From: Thermoplasmata archaeon
Lineage (GTDB): Archaea; Thermoplasmatota; Thermoplasmata; Lutacidiplasmatales; UBA184
Length of the DNA stretch: 50,146 bases
Assembly: GCA_030041075.1 (NCBI GenBank)
Contig: JASHOP010000029.1
Coordinates: 1 to 50,146 of the forward strand
Direction of reading: 5' to 3'
Part shown: positions 1 to 37,663 of the stretch, one piece after another
How positions within the stretch are numbered: position 1 is the stretch's first letter
Layout: the number at the start of each line of letters is the position of its first letter
Translations under genes and position numbers: made by a program
The notes under the pieces: model-generated
What the model saw: the letters and a program-made list of their open reading frames with translations, nothing else
What the model was told of the DNA's origin: nothing
Database searches by the model: none

Positions 1-22
1 GGCGCAAGGAGAAGCCGGCGCG

Positions 23-682
23 ATGAAGGGAGCCTCGGAGACCCCCCCACCGCACGAACCCGAGGACGACGCCGGGCCGATCGTCCAGCGCCCCCAGCCG
101 GTCGCGCCGCCGCCGTTCGCGATCCCGCCCCTGTTTGGAAAGTACGCGTTCGAGGGCGTCGAGGTCCGCGACCCGGGGCTCCTGCCGTACCTGTACCTCC
201 ATGCGGTCTACGCCCCCCACACCGAGGGGCGGCTCTGCGGCCGTCCGTTTCTCAAGGTCCGCATGCACATCGTGGAGCGCCTCGCGAACCAGCTGATGAA
301 GGGCGGGAAATTCACCGGGAAGAAGATGAAGGCGCTCGCGACGGTCCGCCTCGCGTTCGACGAGATCGCCGAGAAGGAGGGGAAGAACCCGATCCAGATT
401 CTCGTCGACGCCGTCGAGAACGCCTCCCCGCGCGAAGAGGTCACCCGCCTCCAGTTCGGCGGGATCTCCGTCCCACGCGCGGTCGACGCGTCCCCATCCC
501 GCCGCCTCAACGTCGCGATCCGCAACCTCGCGATGGGGGCGATCCAGGCGTCCCGCAAGTCCACGAAGCCGATCGAGACCTGCCTCGCGGACGAGATACG
601 GCTGGCCGCGAAGGGTGAGATGACGGCGTTTTCCATCGGGCGGAAGGAAGAGGTCGAGCGCGTCTCGCAGTCGGCGCGCTAG
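23..682 (+). CDS. rps7: 30S ribosomal protein uS7 (archaeal type)
   Basis: LFGKY..V.V.DPGL, IVERL.N.LM, NPIQILVDAVENASPREE, AVD.SP.RR, C-terminal KEEVERVSQSAR; directly upstream of EF-2. Confidence 0.97.
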   Translation: MKGASETPPPHEPEDDAGPIVQRPQPVAPPPFAIPPLFGKYAFEGVEVRDPGLLPYLYLHAVYAPHTEGRLCGRPFLKVRMHIVERLANQLMKGGKFTGKKMKALATVRLAFDEIAEKEGKNPIQILVDAVENASPREEVTRLQFGGISVPRAVDASPSRRLNVAIRNLAMGAIQASRKSTKPIETCLADEIRLAAKGEMTAFSIGRKEEVERVSQSAR

Positions 683-698
683 GATCCAGGGAACCCAC

Positions 699-2900: not shown

Positions 2901-2922
2901 CCGCGGCGGCGCCGTCGGATAT

Positions 2923-2945
2923 AGCTACTACGACTCGTAGTAGCT
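2923..2945. repeat. Perfect palindrome AGCTACTACGA-C-TCGTAGTAGCT (copy 1)
   Basis: 11-bp arms with a 1-nt centre, read directly from the sequence; between convergent fusA and ogt. Confidence 0.9.
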
Positions 2946-3024
2946 TATCGATACGCCGAGCGCCGTCGCGGAGGGTGAGGACGCGCCGTACGTGCCCGGG
3001 CCGAACGTCGGGGGCTCGTGGAAA

Positions 3025-3636
3025 CTAACTACGGGTCGTAGTAGCTTGGCGGCCGGCCCTCGGCCGGGTCGGCGGCCCGCCGTCCCCGTCGAGCGTCCGC
3101 TGGCCGCGGGGCCTCGGTCCGTCGGCGGAGCGCGACCGCAGCGGCCAGGCTCCCTCGTGGTCGAGGAGCCAGCGCTTCCGCCACAGGCCGAGGCCGAAGC
3201 CGGTGATCGACCCCCCCGCCCCGACGACCCGGTGGCACGGGATCACGATCGGGATCGGGTTGCGGGCCATCGCGCCGCCCACGGCGCGCGCCGAGCCTTG
3301 AAACCCGGATCGTCGGGCGAGCTCCCCGTAGGTCACGGTGCGACCCGCGCGGACGGCCCGGAGCACGGTCCAGACCCTCCGGTCGAACTCGGAGGCGGTC
3401 TCGGGCTCGACGTTGACCTCGAGGTCGGAGAGGGTCCCGCGGAAGTACTCCCGCAGCTGCTGCGGCGGGCTCCCCTCGGCGAACGGCGCCCGACGGGGGG
3501 AGGCCCCGGCGGGCATGCCGGTCTGGTGCACGCCGTTCTCGAGCAGGTCGACCACGCGCACGGTGGATCCGGAGTAGGCGACGCGGAACGTCCCGATCGG
3601 CGAGGGGACGTCCGCCACCTCGAGCGACGACGTCAT
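3025..3636 (-). CDS. ogt: Methylated-DNA--protein-cysteine methyltransferase
   Basis: TYGELA, ARAVGGAMARNP, active site PCHRV; ATG 3636 preferred, with an AT-rich element at about 3661. Confidence 0.95.
   Translation of the reverse strand: MTSSLEVADVPSPIGTFRVAYSGSTVRVVDLLENGVHQTGMPAGASPRRAPFAEGSPPQQLREYFRGTLSDLEVNVEPETASEFDRRVWTVLRAVRAGRTVTYGELARRSGFQGSARAVGGAMARNPIPIVIPCHRVVGAGGSITGFGLGLWRKRWLLDHEGAWPLRSRSADGPRPRGQRTLDGDGGPPTRPRAGRQATTTRS
3028..3047. repeat. Imperfect second copy of the palindrome (ACTACGGGTCGTAGTAGCTT)
   Basis: 18/20 identical to 2927-2946, 101 bp downstream. Confidence 0.85.
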
Positions 3637-3671
3637 CGCACGCCCCACAGGGCTCCGGGCTTATCTTGGTT

Positions 3672-4364
3672 TCAACCGGGCCCGACCGACTCGAGCGACG
3701 TGGGGCCGATGCGGAACTCCGCCGCCCCCTCCGGGAGCGACCGGTGCTTCACGAGGACGATGCGCCGGCGGGGTCCCGTCTGACGCTCGAACCTGAGGAT
3801 CGTCTTCGCGGCATGGTTCAGGAACGAGCCGCCGATCGGCTCCAGCGTCCCGTCCCGCACGCTCCGCCAGACCTGGTTGGTGAGGACGACGGGGACGGAC
3901 GCCTGGCGGGCGGTGGCGACGAGCTCGGCGATCTCGAGGACCAGGGCCGTCCGCGCCTCGTCCTCGCCGTCGCCGGCCAGGGAGAGCCGGTAGTAGGCGG
4001 TGGCGGAGTCGACCACGATGAGCCCGACGGGCCGCTGGCCGTCCCGCGCGAGCGCGCAGGCGGTCGCAACCGCTCTCCCCTGCTGCTCGAGATCCTGGGG
4101 TGTGGAAACGAGAAGCCGCTTCAGGATCCGGTCGAGGTCGGGGCCCGCGACCTGGCGGAGACGGTCGGCGCTGACCCCCTCCGTGTCGATGTAGAGCGAC
4201 CAGCGCCCGGCCCGCGCGACCCGGACGGCGAGATCGAGGCAGAAGAGCGTCTTGCCGCTCCCCCCCTCGCCGTAGATCTCGGTGACGCAGTCGGTCTCGA
4301 GACCGCCGGCGAGGAGCCGGTCAGCGGAGGCGATCCCGGTCGGAAGCCGCTCGGCCGGCATCAC
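3672..4364 (-). CDS. radB: DNA repair and recombination protein RadB
   Basis: RecA-like without N-terminal domain; Walker A GEGGSGKT, IVVDS, TNQV, RadB-type KHR motif. Confidence 0.93.
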   Translation of the reverse strand: MMPAERLPTGIASADRLLAGGLETDCVTEIYGEGGSGKTLFCLDLAVRVARAGRWSLYIDTEGVSADRLRQVAGPDLDRILKRLLVSTPQDLEQQGRAVATACALARDGQRPVGLIVVDSATAYYRLSLAGDGEDEARTALVLEIAELVATARQASVPVVLTNQVWRSVRDGTLEPIGGSFLNHAAKTILRFERQTGPRRRIVLVKHRSLPEGAAEFRIGPTSLESVGPG

Positions 4365-4384
4365 CGCGGAGGAGGGAGACCGGC

Positions 4385-4390
4385 CTATAA
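4385..4390 (-). promoter_or_regulatory. TATA-like box (TTATAG) for radB
   Basis: AT-rich hexamer about 21-24 nt upstream of the start in GC-rich DNA. Confidence 0.55.
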
Positions 4391-4391
4391 T

Positions 4392-5753
4392 CTAGGAGGC
4401 GCGAGCCGGACGGCCGAGCGCGTACGGTCGGGCGAGGTCGGCGGAGACCACCGTCCCCGAATCCGAGCGGAACGCCTCGGGGTGCTCGGTGTGGATCGGG
4501 TAGACAGTGCGGGCGCGCAGCTGCGCGACGATCGCCTCGAGCTCGGGGCCGGAGGCGTGACCGCTCGCGTGCATCTGGTGGAACTCAAGACCGAAGTGGT
4601 CGAGCCAGTTGTGCATCACGCGGTCGTCGACGTCGTCCTCGCTGAACGGCTCGCTCATCGAGTGGACGAACGGGCTGCCCTTCGGCGGCCTCAGGTCGAT
4701 CAGCTCGGGGTAATGCGCGAGGTCGAGCGCGAGGAGGTAGCGCTTCCCGTCGGCCCGCACCTCCTCCGCCGTGAGCGCCTCGTCCAGGAACGGCTCCTCC
4801 CACTTGAAGAACCGCTTCTTCTTGCGGGCGTAGGTCCGGATCCCGGGGCTCGCCCCCGGCACCGGCAGCGATCCTCGGGGGAAACGGGAGGCGACAGCGG
4901 CGAGAAGGTGCGCGGTCCGGGTCGAGACGACCAGCGTCCTTCCCCCGGAGGTCGCCGCGCCGTGGAGCGTGCGAAGCCGGTCGACGTCCCGGGGGTAGGT
5001 GCACGCGAGCGCGAGCGTCGGCCGGTCCGCGAGGACGCCGTCGACCGCGGCCCGGACCCCCTCCTCCGTGAGGTTGCGGCGGGGATCCGGCCCCGCGCGG
5101 GTCCCCTCGATCAGGAGCGCGTCGGGTCGTTCGCCGGCCGCTGCCTCGAGGAACGCGCGGGTGTCCGCTGCCCGCGGCCCGTGATGGCGGAAGTCGCCGG
5201 TGTAGACGAGGGTGCCCTCGGAGGTCCGGACGACGAAGCCGTAGGCGAACGGGATCGAGTGGTCGACCGGATGCGGGACGACCTCGAGCCGGCCGACCTT
5301 CACGGGCGACCGGTCCGGCACGGTGCGCCACGCGTGCTCCCCGTACTTCATCGTCGGGCTCGACGACTGGATGGCGTCGAGGAGGACCTTCGTCCCCTCG
5401 CCGAGGTAGACCGGTATCTCCGGGTCGACCAGCGACAGGTATCCGGCGTGATCGGCGTGCGCGTGGCTGACGAAGATCCCGTGGATCTCCGGCGCCCGCC
5501 AGGCGAGGTCCGCGTCCGCGAGCGCCTCGCGGGAGTAGAGCCCCTCGACCCGGGGCAGGAGGTCGAACTCGAGGAGGTCCTTGACGGGGCTCGTCGAGCG
5601 AGGCTGCAGGAATCCGGAGTAGTATGCTTCGTACCGGGGGGCGAACGACGGCCCGAAGTCGAACAGGATCCGGTCGGGGCCGTCCTCGATCAGGATCTTG
5701 TTGCCGCCGATCTCCCGGATCCCGCCGAGGAACGTTACCGTGGGGCTTCGCAT
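4392..5753 (-). CDS. Metallo-beta-lactamase/beta-CASP nuclease, RNase J-like
   Basis: GG..EIGGN, DFG, HAHADH, DHS, YTGDF, C-terminal HASGH and PIHTEH. Confidence 0.85.
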   Translation of the reverse strand: MRSPTVTFLGGIREIGGNKILIEDGPDRILFDFGPSFAPRYEAYYSGFLQPRSTSPVKDLLEFDLLPRVEGLYSREALADADLAWRAPEIHGIFVSHAHADHAGYLSLVDPEIPVYLGEGTKVLLDAIQSSSPTMKYGEHAWRTVPDRSPVKVGRLEVVPHPVDHSIPFAYGFVVRTSEGTLVYTGDFRHHGPRAADTRAFLEAAAGERPDALLIEGTRAGPDPRRNLTEEGVRAAVDGVLADRPTLALACTYPRDVDRLRTLHGAATSGGRTLVVSTRTAHLLAAVASRFPRGSLPVPGASPGIRTYARKKKRFFKWEEPFLDEALTAEEVRADGKRYLLALDLAHYPELIDLRPPKGSPFVHSMSEPFSEDDVDDRVMHNWLDHFGLEFHQMHASGHASGPELEAIVAQLRARTVYPIHTEHPEAFRSDSGTVVSADLARPYALGRPARAS

Positions 5754-5849
5754 CGCTACGCGGGGAAGTCGCCCGGAGATTATCGATTTGGGGGGTCCTT
5801 CGGGTCGGCCCCGCCCCGGAGCCGGCGTGCCGAACGGAGGAGGGGACCC

Positions 5850-5984
5850 CTAGCGGGCCTTCAGGACCTTCTTCACGTTCGGGTGTTCCTTCGTGAAGAT
5901 CTTCCCCCCGCAGTTGTCGCAGCGAACCCCGAACAGGTTCGCATCCGACGGGAGTGCCTCACCGCAACGGATGCAACGGAACAT
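5850..5984 (-). CDS. rpoP: DNA-directed RNA polymerase subunit P (Rpo12)
   Basis: 44 aa MFRCIRCG...VRCDNCGGKIFTK...KVLKAR zinc ribbon; canonical position after rpl37ae. Confidence 0.93.
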   Translation of the reverse strand: MFRCIRCGEALPSDANLFGVRCDNCGGKIFTKEHPNVKKVLKAR

Positions 5985-6010
5985 CGACCGGGAACGACGC
6001 CGCCGAGAGC

Positions 6011-6280
6011 TTAAGAGTTGCCGGGGAGCGGAGCCTTCTCGGTCCGCACGATCGGGGGCGGGGCCGCGAAGACGTAGGCGTTCGACGCGAACCGGGTGCC
6101 GCACCGCCGGCACTCGAAGATCCCGCTCGCGACGCGCCGGAGCGTCGCGGTGGAGCACCGGGGGCACGCGGCGGGCCGGCGCCGCGCGCGGTCCAGCTCC
6201 AGGACCCGCCGCCGGATCCGGATCCCGTAGCGCGGACCCATCCAGCCGGTCGAACCGACCTTCTTCGTCCGCTGGCTCAC
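6011..6280 (-). CDS. rpl37ae: 50S ribosomal protein L37Ae (eL43)
   Basis: TKKVGSTG.MGPRYG, CPRC...CRRC zinc finger; GTG start overlaps the rrp42 stop. Confidence 0.95.
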   Translation of the reverse strand: MSQRTKKVGSTGWMGPRYGIRIRRRVLELDRARRRPAACPRCSTATLRRVASGIFECRRCGTRFASNAYVFAAPPPIVRTEKAPLPGNS

Positions 6281-7065
6281 GACCGGCCCCCCTTCACCAG
6301 CGAGCGCAGTCGCTCGCCGTGCGCGAACGCCCGGCGCGCGACCGCCTTGACATCGTCGGGAGAGAACGCGCCGACCAGGCCCTTCTGCATCGCCACGACG
6401 CGGCCGGTCTCGTCGGTCGCCACCGTCAGGCGTCCCTGCGCCGCATGCTCCTCCTCGAACGTCGGATCGACCATGATCGTGTCGCCGAGGCGCACGAACG
6501 TGCACTCGATTGGCACGTGCAGGACGTCGAGCGGGTAGTCCTCCGACGCGACCTCGAACCGCTTCGCCGGGACGGTCGCGTTCGAGAGCGCCGTGACCGC
6601 CGCCAGGAGCGAGGCGTCGATCAGGTTGCCCGCGTGCTCGAGGACGTGGACGTCCACGTAGCAGACCCAGGTCTTCTCGCCCGGGGTGACGCACAGGCGC
6701 GTCAGGTCGATCGTTTCCGCAGCGCGGATCGCGCGGTCGACCACCCGCGAGACCTCGATCGCCCCGGGCTGGGGCGGTCCGGGCTCGAACGTGGGGCTCG
6801 AGAGCGGGATCAGCTCGGCGTTGGTCGTGAGGACCCCCGCGTTCGGCGTGTCGGGGAACGGCTTCCCCGGCTCGAGCTTGATCCCGGCGAGGACCCGGGT
6901 CTGGCCGAGGCGGATGAGAGCGCTCCCGTCCGCCGTGGAGACGAACCCGGGCTCGGTCGTGATCGGGCGGTACTCGTCCGGCCCGCGGCCGTCGAGCCGC
7001 CGGCCGTCGGCGGCGAGGTCGAGGATGTGCGTCGTCAGGATCTCGGCGACGACCTCCTCGGTCAT
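6277..7065 (-). CDS. rrp42: Exosome complex component Rrp42
   Basis: RLDGRGPDEYR, ADGSA...LGQT, PFPDTP, FEPGPP, SRVVDRAIR, VDPTFEEE; ATG 7065 overlaps the rrp41 stop. Confidence 0.96.
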   Translation of the reverse strand: MTEEVVAEILTTHILDLAADGRRLDGRGPDEYRPITTEPGFVSTADGSALIRLGQTRVLAGIKLEPGKPFPDTPNAGVLTTNAELIPLSSPTFEPGPPQPGAIEVSRVVDRAIRAAETIDLTRLCVTPGEKTWVCYVDVHVLEHAGNLIDASLLAAVTALSNATVPAKRFEVASEDYPLDVLHVPIECTFVRLGDTIMVDPTFEEEHAAQGRLTVATDETGRVVAMQKGLVGAFSPDDVKAVARRAFAHGERLRSLVKGGRS

Positions 7066-29515: not shown

Positions 29516-30328
29516 ATGCCGCGACGCACGCCGGCGGCCCCGGGCGGGGGCGGGCTGGACGCCCTCCGTCGCAGCGGCTCCGCCACGGAGATGCTGTTCC
29601 TCTACGAGTGCGTGACCCAGAGCGTCCCGCGGCTCAAGATCGTCGCCGACCGGCTCGGCCTCACGGTCCAGGCCGCCTCGCATCTCTACCGCGAGCTCTC
29701 CCGCCGGGGTCTGGTGGAGCTCCGCGAGGGCCACTACCGCCCGACCGTGCGCGGCGTGGCAACGCTCCAGGGTAGCCTCTCCGCCGTGGCGGAGGAGGTC
29801 GGTCAGCGGTTGGAGCGGCTCGAGATCGTCCGTACGACGCGTGCCGTCGCCCGGCGGCCGATAGTCGGTGGCCAGCCCGTGGGGCTCGAGCTCGTCGACG
29901 GGATTCTCACGGCGATTCCGGGGGGGCGCGGCGGGTCGCGCGGAACGGCGAGGTCGTCGGCGCGCCCGGGGGAGCTGGTCGAGGTCAACGGGCTGAAGGG
30001 GATCGTCCCGATCACGACCGGCTCCGTCTCCGTCTGGGTCGTCCCCCGTGACCGCGCCGCGCTCGAACCGGCCCGCCGCAAGGCGAGTCGCTTGGTCCGG
30101 ACGACGATCCCCCCGCTCCTCGTGGCCCAGGGGCTCGAGGCGATCCACCTCGCGAGCCGCGCCACCCGGCAGCCCGTGACCCGGTTCGGGGCCGCGGCGG
30201 CCTGCCTCGAGGCGTCCCGCCTCGGCGTTGACAGCGTGGCGTTCGTCTCCGAGGACGAGCTCCCGCGCTTCCTCGCGTCGTTCTCGGGGGCGAACCCTCC
30301 ACCGGTGACCGTCGCGAGGCTCGGTTAG
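29516..30328 (+). CDS. Winged-helix transcriptional regulator (COG1497-like)
   Basis: N-terminal HTH (VADRLGLTVQAAS), then V.L..VDG.L.A, GELV.V..LKGI, C-terminal G.EA...FG....EA..LG. Confidence 0.75.
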   Translation: MPRRTPAAPGGGGLDALRRSGSATEMLFLYECVTQSVPRLKIVADRLGLTVQAASHLYRELSRRGLVELREGHYRPTVRGVATLQGSLSAVAEEVGQRLERLEIVRTTRAVARRPIVGGQPVGLELVDGILTAIPGGRGGSRGTARSSARPGELVEVNGLKGIVPITTGSVSVWVVPRDRAALEPARRKASRLVRTTIPPLLVAQGLEAIHLASRATRQPVTRFGAAAACLEASRLGVDSVAFVSEDELPRFLASFSGANPPPVTVARLG

Positions 30329-31365
30329 CCAACGGCCCCGGGGAATCGATCGGCGGACGCGCGCGCAGGGTACGCCCCGCAGGTGCGGCAGAAGTTCGAG
30401 TCGTCCCGGGGGAGCTCGAACCCGCACCCCTGGCACGGGTTGCGTCCGAACCGCACGAGTGGCGGCCGGTCCCCGAACACCTCGCGGAAGACGCGGTAGT
30501 AGGCGAGCTGCTCCGCGTCGCGGATCGTCACGCGGTCGTCCTCCCGGATCCGTTGAATCTCCCGCTTCAGGAGCTCGGGCGAGGTCCGGGACCGGAAGAA
30601 CTCGGGGAGAGCGTGGGTTCCCGATCCGACCTCGATCGGGTCCTTGCGTCGCCAGCACGATGAGGTCTCGGGAAACGCCTCGCGCAGCGCGATCTTCCCG
30701 AACGTCACCCCGTCGTGCACGCCGACCTTCCGTGCCTTCGGCAGCGCGGTGGCGAACCGGACCACGCTCGGATCGGTGAACGGGGCGCGGACCTCGATCC
30801 CCAACTCCCGTCCCAGCGGCACCGAGGAGAACTGCATCGACTCGGCCATCCGCCGCGAGTACTCCTCGAACTCCGCCGGGGGCTTCGCCCACATGAACGA
30901 GTAGCCCCCGAACAGCTCGTCGGCCGCGTCGCCGGTCATGACCGTCCGGCACCCCAGGGCGCCGGCCTCGCGAAGGCCGCGAGCGATCACGATGCTGTTG
31001 CGGAGCTCCATCGGGTCGAAGCTGCGCAGCACCCGCGCCACGAACCCGACCTCGTCGAGGAGCTCCTCGACCGAGACCTCGACCAGCCGATGGTTCCAGC
31101 CCAGCTCCGCCGCGATGCGCTGGGCGTATGCCCGGTCCGGCGCTTCGGGCGAGGTCAGTACCGTCACCGCCGTTCGGGTCCCGGAAGCCGCGGCGAGAGG
31201 AGCGAGAATCGACGTGTCGAGGCCGCCCGAAAGGAGCATCCCGTCCGAGGGCCTCCTACGCGCCGCGTCCTCGACAAGGCGACGCAGCTCGGTCCGCTCC
31301 GAGGTGGGGGACGGGGTGTGGTCCCGACGGGGCGTGGCGGCCGCCGCGGCTTCCAGGGCCGCCAT
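30325..31365 (-). CDS. Asparagine synthase C-terminal-domain protein (no glutaminase domain) with C-terminal zinc ribbon
   Basis: LLSGGLDTS, MTGDAADELFGGY, RAPF.D, K..LREAF; CQGC...CRTC; CCTATAG about 24 nt upstream. Confidence 0.88.
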   Translation of the reverse strand: MAALEAAAAATPRRDHTPSPTSERTELRRLVEDAARRRPSDGMLLSGGLDTSILAPLAAASGTRTAVTVLTSPEAPDRAYAQRIAAELGWNHRLVEVSVEELLDEVGFVARVLRSFDPMELRNSIVIARGLREAGALGCRTVMTGDAADELFGGYSFMWAKPPAEFEEYSRRMAESMQFSSVPLGRELGIEVRAPFTDPSVVRFATALPKARKVGVHDGVTFGKIALREAFPETSSCWRRKDPIEVGSGTHALPEFFRSRTSPELLKREIQRIREDDRVTIRDAEQLAYYRVFREVFGDRPPLVRFGRNPCQGCGFELPRDDSNFCRTCGAYPARASADRFPGAVG

Positions 31366-31400: not shown

Positions 31401-31409
31401 GCCTTCGGT
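31401..31409. repeat. Probable target-site duplication, left copy GCCTTCGGT
   Basis: Identical to 35513-35521 and immediately outside the left MITE end. Confidence 0.8.
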
Positions 31410-31490
31410 GGTTCTGTTGCGCATTCGCGGGGCGGAGAGGGCTCGCGCCATCATGATCGAGGACTCGGCTCCGCGAAGTGCGACAATGCC
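31410..31490. mobile_element. 81-bp MITE-like element with IS6-family-like terminal inverted repeats (copy L)
   Basis: Ends GGTTCTGTTGCGC / GTGCGACAATGCC; whole element is an imperfect hairpin; 69/81 identical to 35432-35512. Confidence 0.8.
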
Positions 31491-31807
31491 GTATGGGTGT
31501 CCCGATGGTTTCGGAGAACTGCCGTACGTTTGGTGCGGCCGTGGAACCACAGGAAACTGTTACCAATGCGGACGTACCCGTGGAGATACAGGTCGCTACA
31601 AACTATGAGAGGTGTCCTTCCGGCCCGACATCGGGTGGAAGGACACCTCTCATCAGTTTCATGGTTGCTGCGGGGGACGCGTCCTCTAACGTGCGTTGTT
31701 ACAACAACCTTGGAATGGGGGGAAGCCCGTCACAGAACGACGCGGACTCGATGGCCATCTACTACTGGCCAGGGTCGGTAGTCGACGGTGGGCCAGACTG
31801 CACGTAG
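31491..31807 (+). pseudogene. Probable 3' fragment of a secreted/Cys-containing protein gene truncated at the MITE
   Basis: Open frame abutting copy L and ending ...CYNNLGMGGSPSQNDADSMAIYYWPGSVVDGGPDCT*; no signal peptide or clear start. Confidence 0.35.
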
Positions 31808-31831
31808 ATTGAGTAATCAGCAAGGGCCGCC

Positions 31832-33184
31832 TTGACTTCCGAGGTCTTCGTGCAAGCCCCTTTGCCACGTCGTTCTCCTACCCGTCGACAAGTAGTAGCC
31901 GTGGTCGCGGTGGCGACGGCCCTGACCGTAGCGGGAGGGCTGGCAGTTGGGCTCGTCACCCTCGACCGACAGCCCAGCGGAGGTCCGCCGGTCGTCGACG
32001 ACGGACCGAACTTCTACCAGCTCCTCGCCATGGTCAACTCCTCCGTTGCCAACGTGACCGGGGGGCCCTGGTCTCTCTTCTCGGTAGTGGGGCTCGCGGC
32101 CCAAGGCGACTTCAGCCCGAATGTGAGAGGCTACGAGATCGAGAACCAGTCCCTTGTGGTGAACTCGTGCCAGAGCCTACTCGCGGGGGCTACCCTGTGG
32201 AACGGCACGATCCCGATCACATCCGGGACTCTCAACTCAGGTACCGCTCCGTTCTGGCAACTGGCGTACTACTCGAACGTCAGCCAGCAGCTGTTGATCA
32301 TAACCAGTTCTTCTGGGATCGTTCACGTCTTCTCGCCGATACCTGCCTCGAGCGGATGCGCGTACTCGTGGGACACCCATCCGTACAACTTTACGTTCTG
32401 GGGGAACCAGATCTACGCGAACTCGTCGCTTCCCGTGAACAGTCCTCAGGTGGCTCAGGTGATGTGGAACAACGTGGGGCAATACTGGTTCAAACAGAAC
32501 GTACCGGCGGTCGAGATACTTTGGTTGGGAGCCCAAGTATTCACGGAGATCGATGGCGTTCCCGGTGGGAACTGGGGAGTCGATTACCTCCGCTGCGGAA
32601 TCGCGGGCCTTTCGGGCTACCAGAACTTGATTGATGGTGCAGTCTATAGGGACGGCGAGTACGGGGGGATCCTGGGTGGGACAGTGAACTGCGCGATTCT
32701 CAACTATCCCCCGGACTCAGGCACCTACCAGATAGCGAGTTCGATGCCCAACGTCACCGTAGTTGGCACAACTCAGTATGTGGCAATCCCCGACCATCTC
32801 TACCTCGAGGAGGCCAATGAAAGCGTGGCGGACTTTGAGCCGTGGGGCCTCGCGAACTGGATGGTTAGCATGAACCTGACGAATGCGACGGGCCAGCCGC
32901 TTCCCGCGGGGACCCCGGCCTGCATGAGTTGGGTCTCGTCGATTACAGATTGCGCGGCAGACAGCTCAGGCTGGTATGTGGTTCTGTTGTCAGCGGGGGG
33001 TCTCTGGTTGGCGAGCTACGGCGCCACCCAGACCGGAACGGGGTGGTCCGTCCCCGTGACCGCGATGGTGAGCCATCAGCAGATCGTGGTCGTGGTTCCA
33101 CCCTCCTGGGATCTCACGGGTGACCAGCTGGGTCTAAACTCTACGGTTTCATACTGTACGGTGACGGGATCTGCCACGCTGTGA
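31832..33184 (+). CDS. Membrane-anchored surface glycoprotein, paralog A (unknown family)
   Basis: Basic stretch + N-terminal TM helix, many N-X-S/T sequons, conserved Cys; shares blocks with 33654-35015. Confidence 0.85.
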   Translation: MTSEVFVQAPLPRRSPTRRQVVAVVAVATALTVAGGLAVGLVTLDRQPSGGPPVVDDGPNFYQLLAMVNSSVANVTGGPWSLFSVVGLAAQGDFSPNVRGYEIENQSLVVNSCQSLLAGATLWNGTIPITSGTLNSGTAPFWQLAYYSNVSQQLLIITSSSGIVHVFSPIPASSGCAYSWDTHPYNFTFWGNQIYANSSLPVNSPQVAQVMWNNVGQYWFKQNVPAVEILWLGAQVFTEIDGVPGGNWGVDYLRCGIAGLSGYQNLIDGAVYRDGEYGGILGGTVNCAILNYPPDSGTYQIASSMPNVTVVGTTQYVAIPDHLYLEEANESVADFEPWGLANWMVSMNLTNATGQPLPAGTPACMSWVSSITDCAADSSGWYVVLLSAGGLWLASYGATQTGTGWSVPVTAMVSHQQIVVVVPPSWDLTGDQLGLNSTVSYCTVTGSATL

Positions 33185-33653
33185 CCGCGGCTCAGCAGGG
33201 GCTGGTTCACTAAGGTCCTGGCACGTGTTCGGCCCATCGCGGGTTGACGGCCCGAGCCGTCGCTTCTTGTCAGCCGCAACCAGCAAGTCCGGGGATTCTC
33301 GCTCCGTCGGAGCGAGGACCCATGGCCCGACCCCGCTCGCACTGGACCACCGAGGACAAGAGCGATGAGATCGCCGAGCTCCGTCGGCGTTTGCAGGTTC
33401 ATGAGTGTCACTGCCGCCGGCGAATTGGCCGGGACCGGCGTCGTTGACACAATGACTCCCGAAGTCGCGGGACTGGGGACAAGCATGGGAAGACGTTGCG
33501 TCGTGCCTTCGCGACTGTAGTAGCGATTGGCTTCGAGGAGGGCAGCCATCCTTCGCGAGTCGTCCCTCCCGCTGCGTTCGTGGCGGGACCAATCCAAGCG
33601 GGAAGCCCGAAGAACCCCGGAAAGCGTTGTATCGAGCGGTCGCCCTGTTACGG

Positions 33654-35015
33654 ATGATGGCTAGGAGCCCGCCCGGTCCCGAGTCGTCCTCGTCCACGGT
33701 GTCGCGTAGGGTCGGAAGACGGCGACGATATACGGGTGCGGTGATAGTCGTGGCCATCGCAGTCGTAGCCGGCATGTTAGGCGGCTACTACGCCTTGAAG
33801 CCTCGCGGCCATCCTACGCCATCGGTCGTCGACGACGGCCCGACGTTGTACCAAGCCCTGACCAGTGTCAATACATCCGCACGGGCTGTCGCTGGGGGGC
33901 CGTGGACCATCTCACAGATTTATGGTGTCGCGAGCCCCGTTCCGGTCGACCCCAGTTCGTGGGGATACGACCTGTACGACTGGGTACTGGCGAGTTGTCA
34001 GAAGGCTTTCGACGGTCTGACCTTGTGGAACGGCACGATCCCGCTCTTCAACGGAACCTACAACTCGGGAACCGCTCCCTTCTGGCAGCTCGTCTACTTC
34101 TCTAACGCCTCGCAGGAAATTCTGGTAGGTACCGATATCAATGGGATGGTCCGCGCTTATCCCCCCATTTCGATGACCAGCGAGTGCGCCGAAAGTTCCG
34201 GACTAGGGGGGGACCCGTGGGTCTGGTCGGAGTACTGGAGTCAAGACGGCTACCCCGCCAACAGTCCGATCGTTGCCAGCAACGATTGGAGCTTCATGGC
34301 AGCGCACTATGTGGCTTGGATGGACCGACCTGTCGCCGAGCTGTATCTGTTCGGTGCCGATCAGTTCGGGTCGGGTCAGGCAGGAGTGGATCAGATCAAC
34401 TTCGTCACTTGCGGAACCGTGGGCGGTGTAGGAGCAACCCCCGGCCTCGCCCTCTATGGCGGTTCGAATGGTGTCACCCCTCCGGGATCGTTTGAGACTT
34501 CGAACTACACGCTTGGGTGCACGCCCACGTCCGATAGCTGGACCGCTATCTCCGTAGAGATGATGTTCTCGAACACCACGGTCGAGGCCGGGATCGGCAC
34601 CGCGGTCCTTCAGCAGAACTTCACGTTCTACATGACTGGCCCCTCCCCCTTCGTGGGGCCAGGGTACGACCTGCGTGGGATGACCAGCTGGATGGTCGCT
34701 CTGAATCTGACCAACGCCACCGGAGTGCCGCTGCCCATGTCGGTCTCAGGATGTGGCAGCTGGGTCCCCTCGTTGACCGATTGCGCGAACACGTCCGGTT
34801 GGTACGCCGTCCTTCTGGGGCGGGATGGCACCTGGGACGGCAGTTACGGAGCGAGCGGTGCGGGTCCGGCCTGGTCCAACCCGGTACTTCCGATCGCGAA
34901 CAACGAAACCATCGCGATCGTCGTTCCTTCGGACTGGAATGTGGTCGGCGACACGCTCGCGGTCACGTCGACGACTCCCGGGCTGCCGCTCACCGGTTCG
35001 GTCCATCTCGCGTGA
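33654..35015 (+). CDS. Membrane-anchored surface glycoprotein, paralog B (unknown family)
   Basis: Shared blocks VVDDGP..YQ, GGPW, TLWNGTIP...GT.NSGTAPFWQL.Y.SN.SQ, WMV..NLTNATG.PLP, TDCA...GWY.VLL, VP..W...GD.L. Confidence 0.85.
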   Translation: MMARSPPGPESSSSTVSRRVGRRRRYTGAVIVVAIAVVAGMLGGYYALKPRGHPTPSVVDDGPTLYQALTSVNTSARAVAGGPWTISQIYGVASPVPVDPSSWGYDLYDWVLASCQKAFDGLTLWNGTIPLFNGTYNSGTAPFWQLVYFSNASQEILVGTDINGMVRAYPPISMTSECAESSGLGGDPWVWSEYWSQDGYPANSPIVASNDWSFMAAHYVAWMDRPVAELYLFGADQFGSGQAGVDQINFVTCGTVGGVGATPGLALYGGSNGVTPPGSFETSNYTLGCTPTSDSWTAISVEMMFSNTTVEAGIGTAVLQQNFTFYMTGPSPFVGPGYDLRGMTSWMVALNLTNATGVPLPMSVSGCGSWVPSLTDCANTSGWYAVLLGRDGTWDGSYGASGAGPAWSNPVLPIANNETIAIVVPSDWNVVGDTLAVTSTTPGLPLTGSVHLA

Positions 35016-35358
35016 TCCGCGGGACCGTTCCCCGACTTCGCCCCGGAGCCGACATCCCCTCGAGGATCGTGTGGCTATGCACGACCAGTTCCGGTCGGTC
35101 TCTAGGTCGCCCCGGGAGTCACTTCGAGCCGCTTGAACCGGGACGCCGGCCGAGCCTCCACCATCCTCCTCTCTTCGAGGACCCAGGCCAGCCTCCCTTC
35201 CCGGGGGAGCCCCCTTGACGGACGGCCATCACGCGGATCTTGCCGAGAGGTTCCGTCGGCGCCTTCACCGACAGGTGCAGGTCCCGCGCCTCCCACGGTA
35301 GGTGGCGTAGCAGCATCGGCCCCACCACGCAGAAGAACGCGTGCCCCGGGATCGCCCG

Positions 35359-36378
35359 TCACTCCGGACCCACCCCGGCTTGATCGAGATCACCAGGCGA
35401 TCCTTCGGCCCCTTGAACTCCTCCGCGATATGGCTCTGTTGCGCGTTCGCGGGGCGGAGAGAGCTCTCGCCTCGATGATCGAGGGCTCGACCCCGCGAGG
35501 TGCGACAGTGCCGCCTTCGGTCCATCCAGTTTGTACCCCCGGCCGCGCGGGATACGTCGGGCCCGCCCGGTCACCGACGGTCCGGGTACGCCCTGCTCCC
35601 CCGACGGGCCCCGCCGAGTTCGCGGAGCGAGCCGCGCTCCGGTGATCGAGAGTTGCCACGCCCGGGGCCGGGGGACCGCCGGCCCGAGCCGCAGTTCGAC
35701 GCGACGGTCGAACAGGGGGCTATCGACAACGATCGTGTGGTACTCGCCCTGCTCGCCACACGGGTCGAACCCCGCCGCTCTCCCGCACCGGAGGAGGTCA
35801 TGGCACGCCCTTGGCCCCAGCGCCCGACCGAGCCAGCGGCGGTCGAGCGGAGGGTCACGGACGTACGACACGAGCGCGGAGATCCGCTCTCGATGGATCG
35901 CGCCCAGCAACGCCTCCCGGCTCCGCTCCCAGAGGGGGGTCCGCACCCCGACCCCGGAGACCGAGGCCCGGTCGCGGATCCAGTTGGAGCAGTCCCCCAC
36001 GCGGTCGATGTCGCCGGTGACGAGGGTCTCGATGCCCGACGCTCGGAGCCGGTGGATCGCGTCCTCGTAGCCGCGCTTGAACGGCGGGGAGACCGGGATC
36101 GTCCACCACGCGAGGCCGAGAGACTCGGCTTGCAGGCGCATCACGGCGAGCGGATGGGCCCGGAACTCCCCTCGTCGGGGAACGAACGTGACGAGCGTGC
36201 GGACGTCGTGGCCGAGCGCGATCGACTCGTGCAGGGCCAGGGTGCAGTCCTTCCCTCCCGTCCAGAGGACCGCGACTGCTCCCGGCGGTCCGCCGACGTC
36301 GGGTCGGGAACCGGGTCGACGCACGATCGAACTCCGCCGCCGGGGAGCGTCGGGGCCGTCGAGGCGAGTGGGACCCAC
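35359..36378 (-). CDS. DUF71/COG2102 ATP-dependent amide ligase (Dph6-like), B12-associated subtype
   Basis: WTGGKDC, QAESLGL, LVTGDI, PLW, DPCGEQGEYHTIVVDSPLF; homology ends at about 35620 and the frame then runs through MITE R; GTG start inferred. Confidence 0.85.
   Translation of the reverse strand: MGPTRLDGPDAPRRRSSIVRRPGSRPDVGGPPGAVAVLWTGGKDCTLALHESIALGHDVRTLVTFVPRRGEFRAHPLAVMRLQAESLGLAWWTIPVSPPFKRGYEDAIHRLRASGIETLVTGDIDRVGDCSNWIRDRASVSGVGVRTPLWERSREALLGAIHRERISALVSYVRDPPLDRRWLGRALGPRACHDLLRCGRAAGFDPCGEQGEYHTIVVDSPLFDRRVELRLGPAVPRPRAWQLSITGARLAPRTRRGPSGEQGVPGPSVTGRARRIPRGRGYKLDGPKAALSHLAGSSPRSSRRELSPPRERATEPYRGGVQGAEGSPGDLDQAGVGPE
35362..35430 (-). pseudogene. Short gene remnant (IAEEFKGPKDRLVISIKPGWVRS), resembles the C-terminus of PPOX/pyridoxamine-phosphate-oxidase-like proteins
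   Basis: Host-like GC3-rich codons, cut off exactly at the inner end of MITE copy R; family resemblance judged by eye only. Confidence 0.35.
35432..35512. mobile_element. 81-bp MITE-like element with IS6-family-like terminal inverted repeats (copy R)
   Basis: Ends GGCTCTGTTGCGC / GTGCGACAGTGCC (reverse complement GGCACTGTCGCAC). Confidence 0.8.
35513..35521. repeat. Probable target-site duplication, right copy GCCTTCGGT
   Basis: Identical to 31401-31409. Confidence 0.8.
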
Positions 36379-36379
36379 G

Positions 36380-37663
36380 TCATCCCCTCGGCAGCCGCGA
36401 GGCGAGCTCGGCGAGCACTTGGTCGACGGTCCGGATCTCGGTGGCACCCCGACGGAGCAGTTCGGAGCGGATCTCGGTCGCCCGGCCGCCGGTGAAGTCC
36501 CACGGTCCGGGCCCCGCCTGCGCGAGGAGGAGGACCGTCCCCGGCCGCGCGAAGCCCCGCAGCTCCTCGAGGTTGGCGAGGTTCGTAGGGCCGACGGGGA
36601 ACGCCCCCACGACCACGGCCTCGCTCTCCTCGAGGAACGCTCGGACCCGGGACCGGGTCTCGGCCGAGATCGGAGCGAACGGGACCTCGACGGCGGTCGG
36701 GATCCGGAGCTCCTCCGTCAGCGCGCAGTCGGAGTCGAACAGCGGCAGGGCGCCCGCGCTGACGGAGTAGTCGGAGTCGACCAGCCGGCGGATCAACTCG
36801 ACCCCCGAGCCGCCTCCCGCGAGGACGTGGACCCGGGGCCGGACCGGGCCGCCGGGGGACGGTGCCGTCGGAGGGACGTCGGCGATCCGCGGGATGAGGT
36901 AGGGAAGGCGGCTCTGGGCGTCGTAGCGGAGCTCGGAGGCGATCCCCCACACGTCCGAGAGGAGCCGGGGGGAGAGGATCGCGCGGGGGACTCCGTCCGC
37001 GGCGACGCGCCCCCGATGGAGGACGACGATCCGGTCGGCGAACCGCGCCGCGAGGTTCAGGTCGTGGAGGGCGACGACGACCGCGGTGCGGTGCTCGTGG
37101 GCGATCGACCGGACGCGCTCGAGGAGATCCAGCTGGTGTCCGATGTCCAGATGCGCCGTCGGCTCGTCCAGGAGGACGATCGGGGCCTCCTGGGCCAGGA
37201 CGCGAGCGAACCGGACCCGCTGGCGCTCCCCGCCGCTCAGCTCCCAGAGGTACCGGTCCCTTAGGTCGTCCGCTCCGGAGAGTCGCAGTGCGTTCTCGAC
37301 CGCGACCCCGTCCCGAGGCGTTGGAGGAACGAACGCCGCCAAGTGGGGGTAGCGCCCGTATCGAACGTAGTCGGGCACGAGGAGGTTGTCGCCCGGTGGC
37401 TCCTCCTGCGGCATCCAGGCGACGCGCCGCGCCCGGGCCCGGAGCGAGAGCCCCTGGAGGCGCTCGCCGCCGAGGTCGATCGCCCCGTCCTCGTGCGGCT
37501 CCAGGCCGACCGAGGCTCGCAGGAGCGTCGATTTTCCCGATCCGTTCGGTCCGGCCAGCGCGACGACCTCCCCCGGGGGCGCCCGCATCGAGACGTCCCG
37601 CAACGCGACCCGGTCGCCGTAGCGCACGGTGACCCGGTCGAACGATAGCGCTCCGTCGTTCAT
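36380..37663 (-). CDS. ABC transporter ATPase, cobalamin/Fe-chelate type (BtuD-like) with extra C-terminal domain
   Basis: GPNGSGKST, LSGGERQR, LLDEPTAHLD, ALHDLNLAARFAD; C-terminal HVLAGGGSG domain. Confidence 0.92.
   Translation of the reverse strand: MNDGALSFDRVTVRYGDRVALRDVSMRAPPGEVVALAGPNGSGKSTLLRASVGLEPHEDGAIDLGGERLQGLSLRARARRVAWMPQEEPPGDNLLVPDYVRYGRYPHLAAFVPPTPRDGVAVENALRLSGADDLRDRYLWELSGGERQRVRFARVLAQEAPIVLLDEPTAHLDIGHQLDLLERVRSIAHEHRTAVVVALHDLNLAARFADRIVVLHRGRVAADGVPRAILSPRLLSDVWGIASELRYDAQSRLPYLIPRIADVPPTAPSPGGPVRPRVHVLAGGGSGVELIRRLVDSDYSVSAGALPLFDSDCALTEELRIPTAVEVPFAPISAETRSRVRAFLEESEAVVVGAFPVGPTNLANLEELRGFARPGTVLLLAQAGPGPWDFTGGRATEIRSELLRRGATEIRTVDQVLAELASRLPRG

What the first reader, a model, noticed from the sequence alone, without database searches (positions are those of the whole stretch)
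31401..35521. Transposase-less composite element built from two 81-bp IS6/IS26-like MITEs with a 9-bp target-site duplication
Seen: 31410-31490 and 35432-35512 are both 81 bp, in direct orientation and 69/81 identical. GCCTTCGGT lies immediately outside both outer ends (8 bp if one boundary is shifted by 1 nt). The ~3.9-kb cargo is lower in GC and contains no transposase. Known: the ends GGTTCTGTTGC, GGCTCTGTTGC and GGCACTGTCGC resemble IS6-family IRs (IS257/IS1216, IS6100, IS26), and this family forms pseudo-compound transposons with directly oriented copies and 8-bp duplications. Inference: a miniature non-autonomous archaeal analogue of IS26 gene capture, mobilised in trans. The flanking repeat is perfect while the MITEs differ at 12 sites. 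That fits one MITE inserting first and a MITE+cargo circle (translocatable unit) integrating into it later, better than a single replicative event.
Basis: partly seen in the sequence, partly recalled or inferred. Interest (0 to 1): 0.85.

Follow-up and report, generated by a model that had tools for sequence, protein, structure and literature searches.

The report
MITE-bounded composite transposon in a peat archaeon
Two 81-base miniature transposon ends bracket a 3.9-kb pair of surface-protein genes in an uncultured peat archaeon, which looks like gene capture by a transposon that carries no transposase of its own.

Summary
Window 31410-31490 and 35432-35512 are 81-bp hairpin-forming repeats, 69/81 identical and in direct orientation. 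GCCTTCGGT abuts both outer ends; the chance of such a 9-mer match is 2.8e-5. They enclose 3,941 bp of lower GC (0.62 against 0.72 genome-wide) with no transposase.

The host is a Thermoplasmata MAG from peat. In its genus, 42 of 150 genomes encode an IS6-like (PF13610) zinc-finger transposase. Four distinct 2.0-2.4 kb ISs could be delimited. All four have GGnnCTGT tips and exactly 9-bp duplications. The MITE tips score in the top 5 to 6,882 of 3.2 million genomic 12-mers against a profile of those IS ends.

Another species (G114) has two identical 81-bp copies in direct orientation around a 758-bp low-GC gene. Contig C7 of this genome holds a remnant of a second MITE::cargo junction. In relatives, cargo homologues lie beside tRNA genes and without MITEs.

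Missing evidence: no empty site was found, none of 6 other copies has its own duplication, and no cognate transposase was shown in this genome.

Verdict: a real MITE-bounded pseudo-compound transposon, a new variant of a known kind.

The parts
30328..31362 (-). Left flanking gene, asparagine-synthase-like. Its ATG lies 38 bp from the duplicated 9-mer.
   Evidence: Pfam PF00733, 107 bits. A homologue was found in only 4 of 150 genus genomes.
31401..31409 (.). Left copy of the 9-bp target-site duplication, GCCTTCGGT.
   Evidence: 9/9 at zero offset. Chance is 2.8e-5.
31410..31490 (+). MITE A: 81 bp, an imperfect hairpin of terminal inverted repeats. Tips are GGTTCTGTTGCG and GGCATTGTCGCA (reverse complement).
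   Evidence: -43.1 kcal/mol; left tip in the top 5 of 3,212,142 genomic 12-mers against the IS-end profile.
31491..31696 (.). Unique spacer inside the element. It holds a perfect 17-bp-stem palindrome at 31605-31653.
   Evidence: I11. The only related copy is at G000:C15:11294-11336.
31661..31807 (+). Small ORF of up to 48 aa, ending ...MAIYYWPGSVVDGGPDCT*. It is conserved upstream of cargo-1 homologues.
   Evidence: conserved in L093 and L097/L098. No Pfam family.
31832..33184 (+). Cargo gene 1: 450 aa, N-terminal membrane anchor, 12 N-glycosylation sequons, no known family.
   Evidence: 62 clusters; the named ones are Thermoplasmata hypothetical proteins; pLDDT 86; no meaningful PDB fold match, TM 0.25 or less.
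33627..35015 (+). Cargo gene 2: 462 aa, a paralogue of gene 1 (35% identity), 11 sequons.
   Evidence: (repeats D1, D3-D5).
35016..35431 (.). 416-bp tail of the cargo. It may hold a frameshifted gene remnant on the minus strand that starts at the MITE B boundary.
   Evidence: The only support is tblastx similarity to L009 of the unpublished genome G019, which is weak.
35432..35512 (+). MITE B: 81 bp, same orientation as A. Tips are GGCTCTGTTGCG and GGCACTGTCGCA (reverse complement).
   Evidence: -51.4 kcal/mol; tips in the top 264 and top 707 of 3.2 million.
35513..35521 (.). Right copy of the 9-bp target-site duplication, GCCTTCGGT.
35359..36447 (-). Right flanking gene, DUF71/diphthamide-synthase-2-like. 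Its open frame has no stop before the insertion and reads through MITE B to 35359.
   Evidence: Pfam PF01902 on residues 58-269.

Best explanation
The 4.1-kb segment 31410-35512 is a non-autonomous composite (pseudo-compound) transposon. Two 81-bp MITEs, each only a pair of IS6-like terminal inverted repeats folded back on each other, bracket the cargo in direct orientation. The cargo is a small conserved ORF plus two paralogous membrane-anchored, probably N-glycosylated proteins. An IS6-like zinc-finger DDE transposase encoded elsewhere recognised the outer GGnnCTGT tips and inserted the unit between the DUF71 and Asn-synthase-like genes. That event duplicated 9 bp of target. Shown here: the anatomy, the match of the tips to the ISs of the genus, the 9-bp rule of those ISs, a second MITE-cargo-MITE in another species, and a different genomic home for the cargo family in relatives. 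Inferred: that a transposase acted in trans, and which one. The route is unresolved. My rough odds are 40% for transposition of a pre-formed MITE-cargo-MITE as a unit, 35% for a MITE+cargo circle joining a resident MITE, and 25% for replicative fusion of a small circular donor carrying one MITE followed by divergence of the two copies.
For: Anatomy and duplication: with a chance of 2.8e-5. Neither MITE has a duplication of its own (best 4/9 and 5/9), so two independent insertions are excluded. A matching autonomous family exists. PF13610 transposases are present in 42 of 150 genus genomes. In 37 fetched loci (34 distinct) I found 4 distinct ISs of 1,994-2,407 bp with GG(T/A)(T/A)CTGT tips and exactly 9-bp duplications. 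Only 0.16 such matches are expected by chance over the 5,830 tip pairs tested. Against a profile of the 8 ends of those ISs, the four MITE tips rank in the top 5, 264, 707 and 6,882 of 3,212,142 genomic 12-mers. The end of the G002 IS, GGTACTGTTGCGC, matches the MITE tips at 12 of 13 positions. The transposase is IS6-like. PF13610 scores 60.7 and 81.6 bits for the two transposases scanned as proteins (cut-off 27) and up to 89.4 bits in the genome searches. Every one of the 12 plasmid hits listed in the top 12 rows is annotated as an IS6-family transposase, the best being the ISCpe7 type at 29% identity and E 1e-30. Other copies: the genome holds 3. A covariance model hits 8 of 150 genus genomes, of which 5 are convincing. 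G114 carries two 81/81 identical direct copies 839 bp apart around one ORF, with GC 0.53 inside against 0.60 and 0.70 outside. G000:C7 holds MITE bases 1-64 joined to a 51-bp, 96% identical piece of the cargo's small ORF. This is a second MITE::cargo junction. Cargo homologues in relatives lie next to tRNA genes and lack MITEs. Cargo GC3 is 0.74-0.75 against 0.86-0.90 in the flanking genes. Independent contigs from 3 other samples bridge both junctions.
Against: No empty site was found. The Asn-synthase-like gene occurs in only 4 of 150 genus genomes and is never next to DUF71. Contigs of 4 runs showed no joint skipping the element. Contigs can hide rare alleles, and raw reads were not available. 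None of the 6 other copies has its own 9-bp duplication (best 6/9 even with shifts allowed), and the G114 pair has none at its outer ends (5/9). Copy number is low: 3 in this 89%-complete MAG. The only IS6-like IS assembled in this genome (C79) shares just the first ~9 bases of its ends with the MITE tips and shows no duplication, so no cognate transposase is shown here. The two MITEs differ at 12 of 81 positions, so the event is not recent, or the two copies were never identical. The IS6 assignment is loose. NCBIfam NF033587 scores 112.7 against a cut-off of 125, the duplication is 9 bp and not 8, and the ISs are more than twice the usual length. Lower GC is also seen around the cargo homologues in G017, so the GC dip alone does not prove recent arrival. 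A CTCCTCC motif about 8 nt outside the left tip of 3-4 copies is unexplained.
Confidence: 0.7

Rival explanations
1. The structure was built in place by recombination and not by transposition of the unit. A solo MITE inserted first and made the 9-bp duplication. Later a circular DNA carrying a related MITE plus the cargo crossed over with it. The crossover was either homologous or the IS26-type targeted conservative reaction. It is a sub-route of the best explanation, listed apart because it predicts a solo-MITE allele.
For: The two MITEs differ at 12 of 81 positions while the 9-mers are identical. The identical G114 pair has no outer duplication, as expected if a unit joined a resident copy. 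In L044 an IS sits directly beside a solo IS-end remnant, which suggests insertion next to existing ends.
Against: A perfect 9-mer is expected 24% of the time even if everything diverged together (0.852^9). No solo-MITE allele was seen in 4 runs. Homologous crossover within 81 bp at 85% identity would be inefficient.
Confidence: 0.25
2. The 81-nt hairpins are not mobile elements. They are structural or regulatory palindromes, REP-like or an RNA, that recur near surface-protein and glycosylation genes. On this reading the 9-mer identity reflects a sequence preference or chance.
For: No single copy has its own duplication (0 of 6). Copy number is low. The stem is conserved across species, with 20 predicted pairs of which 2 have compensatory changes. 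A CTCCTCC motif recurs outside the left tip. The C7 copy lies in a divergent promoter region of a glycosylation cluster.
Against: The tips match the IS ends of the same genus far better than chance. The 9-bp length equals the IS duplication length in 4 of 4 ISs. The chance of the 9/9 match is 2.8e-5. Identity of the G114 pair ends exactly at the GG and CC tips. Copies lie in unrelated contexts, and Rfam has no match. MITE B lies at the 3' ends of convergent genes, not in a promoter.
Confidence: 0.07
3. The segment is a genomic island integrated by a site-specific recombinase, with the 81-bp repeats as attL and attR.
For: Direct repeats bracket a lower-GC segment. Cargo homologues in relatives lie beside tRNA genes, the classic island sites.
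Against: There is no integrase or recombinase domain in the cargo ORFs and no tRNA in the window. The 9-mer lies outside the repeats on opposite sides, which is the geometry of a target duplication and not of att cores. The repeats are 85% identical rather than identical, and they carry IS-type tips.
Confidence: 0.04

Closest known systems
IS6-family pseudo-compound transposons (IS26, IS257, IS6100; for example Tn4003, Tn610, Tn2680)
   Same: Flanking copies are in direct orientation with cargo between them, and a target duplication lies only at the outer ends. The tips are GG with a cTGTt motif. These properties are described in PMC7986276 (passages read) and were seen here.
   Different: Here the flanking units are 81-bp MITEs without a transposase and not 0.8-kb ISs. 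The duplication is 9 bp and not 8. The host is an archaeon. The related autonomous ISs are 2.0-2.4 kb and carry a zinc-finger transposase.
MITE-flanked class 1 integrons of Acinetobacter and similar MITE-bounded composites in bacteria
   Same: Two copies of a non-autonomous MITE bracket cargo genes and are thought to move them with a transposase supplied in trans (PMC10969869, passages read).
   Different: Those are bacterial, use longer MITEs of another family, and carry resistance integrons. I found no archaeal or IS6-type example in the searches. Those searches cover only the held library.
IS6-family MITEs listed in ISfinder (MITEBth2, MITEHarch3; 227 and 336 bp)
   Same: They are non-autonomous derivatives made of IS6-type ends. 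By its name, which I did not check, MITEHarch3 appears to come from a haloarchaeon (PMC6807381 and PMC7986276, passages read).
   Different: The element here is much shorter at 81 bp, essentially the two inverted repeats alone. It belongs to a Thermoplasmata lineage and is seen as a pair around cargo. I could not compare sequences because those MITEs are not in the tools.
Long IS6-like elements with an N-terminal zinc finger (clostridial ISCpe7 group, clade h of PMC7986276)
   Same: They are the nearest annotated homologues of the genus's transposase: 29% identity over residues 96-363, E 1e-30. Both have a zinc-binding N-terminal extension.
   Different: The Thermoplasmata ISs are longer (2.0-2.4 kb against 1.2-1.8 kb), make 9-bp duplications, and can carry passenger genes such as the ABM-domain ORF inside the C79 IS. 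[quoted passage not shown]

Membership tests
MITE | Short and non-coding | tested here: met
   The unit is 81 bp. Its limits are fixed by the G114 pair, whose identity ends exactly at the tips.
MITE | Terminal inverted repeats | tested here: met
   The copies fold as long hairpins of -43.1 and -51.4 kcal/mol. There are 20 conserved pairs across 6 copies.
MITE | Ends match those of an autonomous IS in the lineage | tested here: met
   The tips rank in the top 5 to 6,882 of 3.2 million 12-mers against the IS-end profile. They match the G002 IS end at 12 of 13 positions.
MITE | Target-site duplication around single copies | tested here: not met
   None of 6 other copies has one; the best is 6/9 with shifts allowed. 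Only the composite as a whole has 9/9.
MITE | Several copies at unrelated sites | tested here: met
   There are 3 copies in G000. The model hits 8 of 150 genus genomes, 5 convincingly, in different contexts. Copy number is low.
IS6 family (for the ends and the presumed helper) | DDE transposase recognised by IS6 models | tested here: inconclusive
   PF13610 scores 60.7 and 81.6 bits for the two proteins scanned, up to 89.4 bits in the genome searches, above the cut-off of 27. All 12 listed plasmid hits are IS6-family transposases. NCBIfam NF033587 scores 112.7, below its cut-off of 125.
IS6 family (for the ends and the presumed helper) | GG tips and a cTGTt motif in the inverted repeats | tested here: met
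   for the ISs, for the MITEs. The motif definition comes from PMC7986276.
IS6 family (for the ends and the presumed helper) | 8-bp target duplication | tested here: not met
   The duplication is exactly 9 bp in 4 of 4 delimited ISs and in the composite.
IS6 family (for the ends and the presumed helper) | IS length about 0.7-0.9 kb | tested here: not met
   The ISs are 1,994-2,407 bp.
IS6 family (for the ends and the presumed helper) | Direct orientation of the flanking copies in pseudo-compound transposons | tested here: met
   The window pair and the G114 pair are both direct.
IS6 family (for the ends and the presumed helper) | Replicative cointegrate or translocatable-unit mechanism | not testable with these tools
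   This needs an assay or junction reads. Only contigs were available.
MITE-bounded composite transposon | The same unit at more than one site, or an empty site | tested here: inconclusive
   No empty site was found. The C7 remnant of a second MITE::cargo junction is partial support.
IS1 family (considered because of the 9-bp duplication and zinc domain; those IS1 properties are recalled) | Transposase recognised by IS1 models | tested here: not met
   NF033558 scores 40.8 against a cut-off of 100. The IS1/IS1595 zinc domain scores 26 against 28. Pfam gave no IS1 DDE hit.
Integrase-borne genomic island | Recombinase gene and att core inside the repeats, often at a tRNA | tested here: not met
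   The cargo ORFs have no Pfam recombinase. The window has no tRNA. The 9-mer lies outside the repeats.

The most novel reading that the evidence does not exclude
Thermoplasmata carry an uncatalogued clade of zinc-finger IS6-like transposases that make 9-bp duplications and favour TTCGG-containing targets. Their 81-bp MITEs would act as portable ends of transposase-free translocatable units. These units would shuttle surface-protein gene cassettes between loci and between species, an archaeal counterpart of IS26-driven gene capture in which the IS has been reduced to its two inverted repeats.
Probability: 0.3. Interest if true: 0.6.

Novelty: new variant of a known kind. Interest (0 to 1): 0.45.

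Why it matters
Gene capture by IS26-type elements is the main route by which resistance genes are assembled in bacteria. It has no experimental counterpart in archaea, and the archaeal IS6-like elements are themselves unstudied (PMC6807381, passages read).

This case shows the same architecture stripped to its minimum: two 81-bp ends and cargo, with the enzyme elsewhere. It occurs in an uncultured peat Thermoplasmata lineage. It also reveals that the lineage's IS6-like elements follow a 9-bp rule.

The cargo is a pair of lineage-specific, probably glycosylated envelope proteins. Such units could be one way these archaea vary their cell surface.

The value is moderate. The finding extends a known mechanism to a new domain and a new transposase clade, and it gives defined ends and a candidate transposase for a bench test. 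It does not overturn anything.

Tried and rejected
Empty site. DNA and protein searches of 41 and 150 relatives found no genome with DUF71 next to the Asn-synthase-like gene. G055 has ABC-Asn-up595 synteny without DUF71 or cargo, so it is not a usable empty site. Laying contigs of 4 runs gave no joint across 31410-35521. This shows nothing about absence, because contigs drop rare alleles.

Virtual empty site. The DUF71 frame stays open for 359 aa there, against 362 aa now, so it says nothing about gene disruption.

'Flank X'. I first read window 31712-31762 and the sequence after the C7 and G002 copies as a third MITE arm plus a conserved flank. Searches showed it is part of a conserved small ORF upstream of the cargo family. 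The G002 resemblance was not supported.

Genes next to the left tips. An SD-like GGAGG outside the left tip is followed only by 12-16 aa ORFs in G002, so it is not a gene start.

Cargo function. Pfam, the protein atlas (best score 0.76, unnamed Thermoplasmatota cluster) and Foldseek against the PDB (TM 0.25 or less) gave nothing usable.

Rfam. Only two chance-level hits, both to the 31605-31653 palindrome.

MITEs beside cargo homologues elsewhere. There were none at E below 0.01 in 21 loci. The E 0.04 hit is a tRNA-Arg leader/trailer stem.

Tail remnant. The similarity of 35016-35431 to an ORF in L009 is weak and has no Pfam family. It rests on the unpublished genome G019 and is not used as evidence.

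Weak covariance hits in G139, G049 and G155 do not look like the MITE, so I do not count them.

Supplementary files of papers were not consulted. Tables of TIRs and duplications in PMC6807381 and PMC7986276 may bear on whether any catalogued IS6 member makes 9-bp duplications.

Full report
**Observation.** Window 31410-31490 and 35432-35512 are each 81 nt, lie in direct orientation and are 69/81 identical. GCCTTCGGT sits immediately outside both outer ends, at 31401-31409 and 35513-35521. A scan allowing shifts of 0-3 nt finds the best match at zero shift, 9/9. Two random 9-mers of this genome are identical with probability 2.8e-5.

Each repeat folds on itself as a long imperfect hairpin (-43.1 and -51.4 kcal/mol). 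That is what two inverted repeats placed back to back would do. Neither repeat has a duplication of its own (best 4/9 and 5/9), so two independent insertions are excluded.

The enclosed 3,941 bp have GC 0.622 against 0.716 for the genome. The cargo genes have GC3 of 0.74-0.75 against 0.86-0.90 for the flanking genes. Contigs from three other samples of the same study bridge both junctions at depths similar to the flanks, so the arrangement is not a chimeric assembly.

**Host and surroundings.** The window is contig C22 of a 1.6-Mb, 107-contig, 89%-complete MAG. Relatives of its transposase carry record titles of Thermoplasmata archaeon MAGs. The runs that hold the sequence are peat metagenomes.

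On the left is an asparagine-synthase-like gene on the minus strand (30328-31362). On the right is a DUF71/diphthamide-synthase-2-like gene, also on the minus strand, followed by an ABC ATPase. The DUF71 frame has no stop before the insertion and reads through MITE B. The Asn-synthase-like gene is rare, found in 4 of 150 genus genomes. In G055 it sits next to the ABC gene without DUF71 or cargo. No orthologous empty site is therefore available among the species representatives.

**The cargo.** It has three parts:
- a small ORF ending ...MAIYYWPGSVVDGGPDCT*, whose sequence is conserved upstream of cargo homologues in two other contigs;
- two paralogous genes of 450 and 462 aa, with an N-terminal membrane anchor and 12 and 11 N-glycosylation sequons;
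- a 416-bp tail.

The protein family has 62 clusters. The few named ones are Thermoplasmata hypothetical proteins, and none has a Pfam domain. A confident model (pLDDT 86) has no meaningful PDB match. There is no room for a transposase and no sign of one.

In relatives the same gene pair or single genes lie beside tRNA genes: tRNA-Ile in G017 and L092, tRNA-Arg in L097. A covariance search of 21 such loci found no MITE. The cargo family therefore occupies a different home here.

**What the 81-mers are.** The genus holds IS6-like transposases. PF13610 is matched above its cut-off in 42 of 150 genomes and once in this genome, on contig C79. The proteins are 390-550 aa with a SWIM or IS1/IS1595-like zinc domain ahead of the DDE core. 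The NCBIfam IS6 model covers them end to end but scores 112.7 against a cut-off of 125. The nearest annotated homologues in plasmids are all IS6-family transposases, the best being the zinc-finger ISCpe7 type at 29% identity.

I scanned 37 fetched loci (34 distinct) for inverted GGnnCTGT-type tips. This gave four distinct ISs, in G002, G102, G149 and G120, of 1,994-2,407 bp. Each is flanked by a perfect direct repeat of exactly 9 bp. Only 0.16 such matches are expected by chance among the 5,830 tip pairs tested. The other loci gave no delimitable ends. Many are cut by contig ends or by the 1.5-kb flanks I fetched.

A profile built from the eight ends of those four ISs places the four MITE tips in the top 5, 264, 707 and 6,882 of 3,212,142 genomic 12-mers. 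One end of the G002 IS, GGTACTGTTGCGC, matches the MITE tips at 12 of 13 positions. The 9-bp duplication of the composite is thus the hallmark of this IS group and not an oddity. The canonical IS6 value is 8 bp (PMC7986276, passages read).

**Other copies.** A profile search finds only three copies in this genome: the two here and one on contig C7. A covariance model hits 8 of 150 genus genomes at E up to 1e-3. By eye five of these are convincing (G000, G002, G046, G114, G091) and three are not.

G114 is the most telling. It has two 81/81 identical copies in direct orientation, 839 bp apart, with identity ending exactly at the GG and CC tips. They enclose a 758-bp segment of GC 0.53, against 0.60 and 0.70 outside, that holds one membrane-protein ORF. 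This is a second and apparently younger MITE-cargo-MITE, although it has no outer duplication.

The C7 copy consists of MITE bases 1-64 joined to a 51-bp, 96% identical piece of the cargo's small ORF, and then unrelated sequence. Relative to the window it lacks about 247 bp. It is best read as the scar of a second MITE::cargo junction. That means MITE and cargo have been linked at more than one place.

**Mechanism.** IS6-family elements move by forming cointegrates and leave directly repeated copies around whatever lay between them (PMC7986276, passages read). The direct orientation, the duplication only at the outer ends, and the matching tips fit that family's way of building pseudo-compound transposons. 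The difference here is that 81-bp ends stand in for whole ISs and the enzyme is supplied in trans.

Which route made this copy cannot be decided. At that divergence a 9-mer survives unchanged 24% of the time. The C7 copy shares states with A at some positions and with B at others, which fits a star-like history as well as any other.

I put unit transposition at about 40%, circle into resident MITE at about 35%, and fusion of a one-MITE circular donor followed by divergence at about 25%.

**Evidence against, and gaps.**
- No empty site, solo-MITE allele or circle junction was found.
- None of six other copies has its own duplication.
- Copy number is low.
- The only IS assembled in this genome shares just the first nine bases or so with the MITE tips and has no duplication. 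IS copies are often missing from MAGs.
- The GC dip is also seen around the cargo homologues in G017.
- A CTCCTCC motif about 8 nt outside the left tip of three or four copies has no explanation.

**Rivals.** A structural or regulatory palindrome is unlikely, given the tip match, the 9-bp agreement with the ISs and the exact 81-bp identity limits in G114. An integrase-borne island is unlikely because there is no recombinase and no tRNA in the window, and the 9-mers lie outside the repeats. An assembly artefact is excluded.

**Comparison with what is known.** MITE-bounded composites are known in bacteria, for example the Acinetobacter integrons (PMC10969869, passages read). IS6-family MITEs are listed in ISfinder (PMC6807381 and PMC7986276, passages read). 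Pseudo-compound transposons are the signature of IS26 and its kin.

My four literature searches returned no description of a MITE-bounded composite in archaea or built from IS6-type ends. Those searches cover only the held library. Harmer and Hall argue that archaeal and long zinc-finger IS6-like elements may not belong in the IS6/IS26 family and note that none has been studied experimentally. The 9-bp rule found here adds to that argument.

**Verdict.** It is a new variant of a known kind and of moderate interest.

Noticed in passing
window 31661-31807 (conserved part 31697-31806); L093 about 5860-5930; L097 2143-2202: A small ORF ending ...YYWPGSVV.GG.P.C.* is conserved upstream of cargo-1 homologues in three lineages. 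Conservation extends upstream of the internal Met (CYN..G.GGS..Q..AD). It could be a leader peptide or a small secreted peptide. It has no Pfam family.
   Followed up: partly
G000:C7:3172-3288 (L036): MITE bases 1-64 are fused to a 51-bp, 96% identical fragment of the cargo's small ORF. The fusion lies between a GHMP-kinase-like gene and a GT4 glycosyltransferase gene. It looks like the scar of a second MITE::cargo junction.
   Followed up: partly
G114:C7:71027-71946 (L078): Two identical 81-bp MITEs in direct orientation enclose 758 bp of lower GC with one membrane-protein ORF of about 190 aa. There is no outer target duplication.
   Followed up: partly
G000:C79:6137-9689 (L013): The genome's only IS6-like IS has its 98-bp left end duplicated 1,481 bp upstream at 82% identity, bracketing a YCII-domain ORF. 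It also carries an ABM-domain ORF between the left end and the transposase. A second right-end-like repeat lies just inside the right end. No duplication was seen.
   Followed up: partly
L044 539-571 and 2630-2662 (G002:C2): A 24-bp solo copy of the IS right end sits directly left of the left target duplication of a complete IS. This gives a 33-bp direct repeat and suggests insertion next to a pre-existing end.
   Followed up: no
Target duplications: window 31401-31409; L044, L065, L052, L053: Three of five 9-bp duplications contain TTCGG (TTTCGGGCC, GTTCGGAGC, GCCTTCGGT). The background is 1.3% of genomic 9-mers. CTTCGG also recurs in flanks of the G114 copies. This may be a target preference, but n is small.
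   Followed up: partly
Left flanks of MITE B (window 35415-35421), G002a, G114 copy 1 and partly G002b: CTCCTCC or TCCTCC lies 7-8 nt outside the left tip in 3-4 of 8 copies, in otherwise unrelated flanks. It is not followed by a real gene on the other strand. It is unexplained.
   Followed up: partly
L097 1779-1892 (same sequence in L098 5544-5657): A tRNA-Arg(CCT) gene lies about 270 bp upstream of the small ORF (about 360 bp upstream of the cargo-homologue match). It is embedded in a leader/trailer helix of about 20 bp whose inner stem (TTCGCGGGG...CCCCGCGAGG) resembles the MITE stem (covariance hit E 0.04). This may be chance in GC-rich DNA.
   Followed up: no
window 31605-31653; G000:C15:11294-11336: A perfect 17-bp-stem palindrome lies inside the element's left spacer and has one related copy (91% over 43 nt) elsewhere in the genome.
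   Followed up: no
window 35359-36447: The DUF71-like ORF has no stop codon near the end of its conserved domain (about 35640). It runs on through the target duplication and MITE B, and it would also run on for 359 aa in a virtual empty site. Its true C-terminus is unclear.
   Followed up: partly
run X3, window 31415: One contig matches from inside MITE A rightwards but carries unrelated sequence to its left. This may be another MITE context in the community. The contig could not be inspected further.
   Followed up: no
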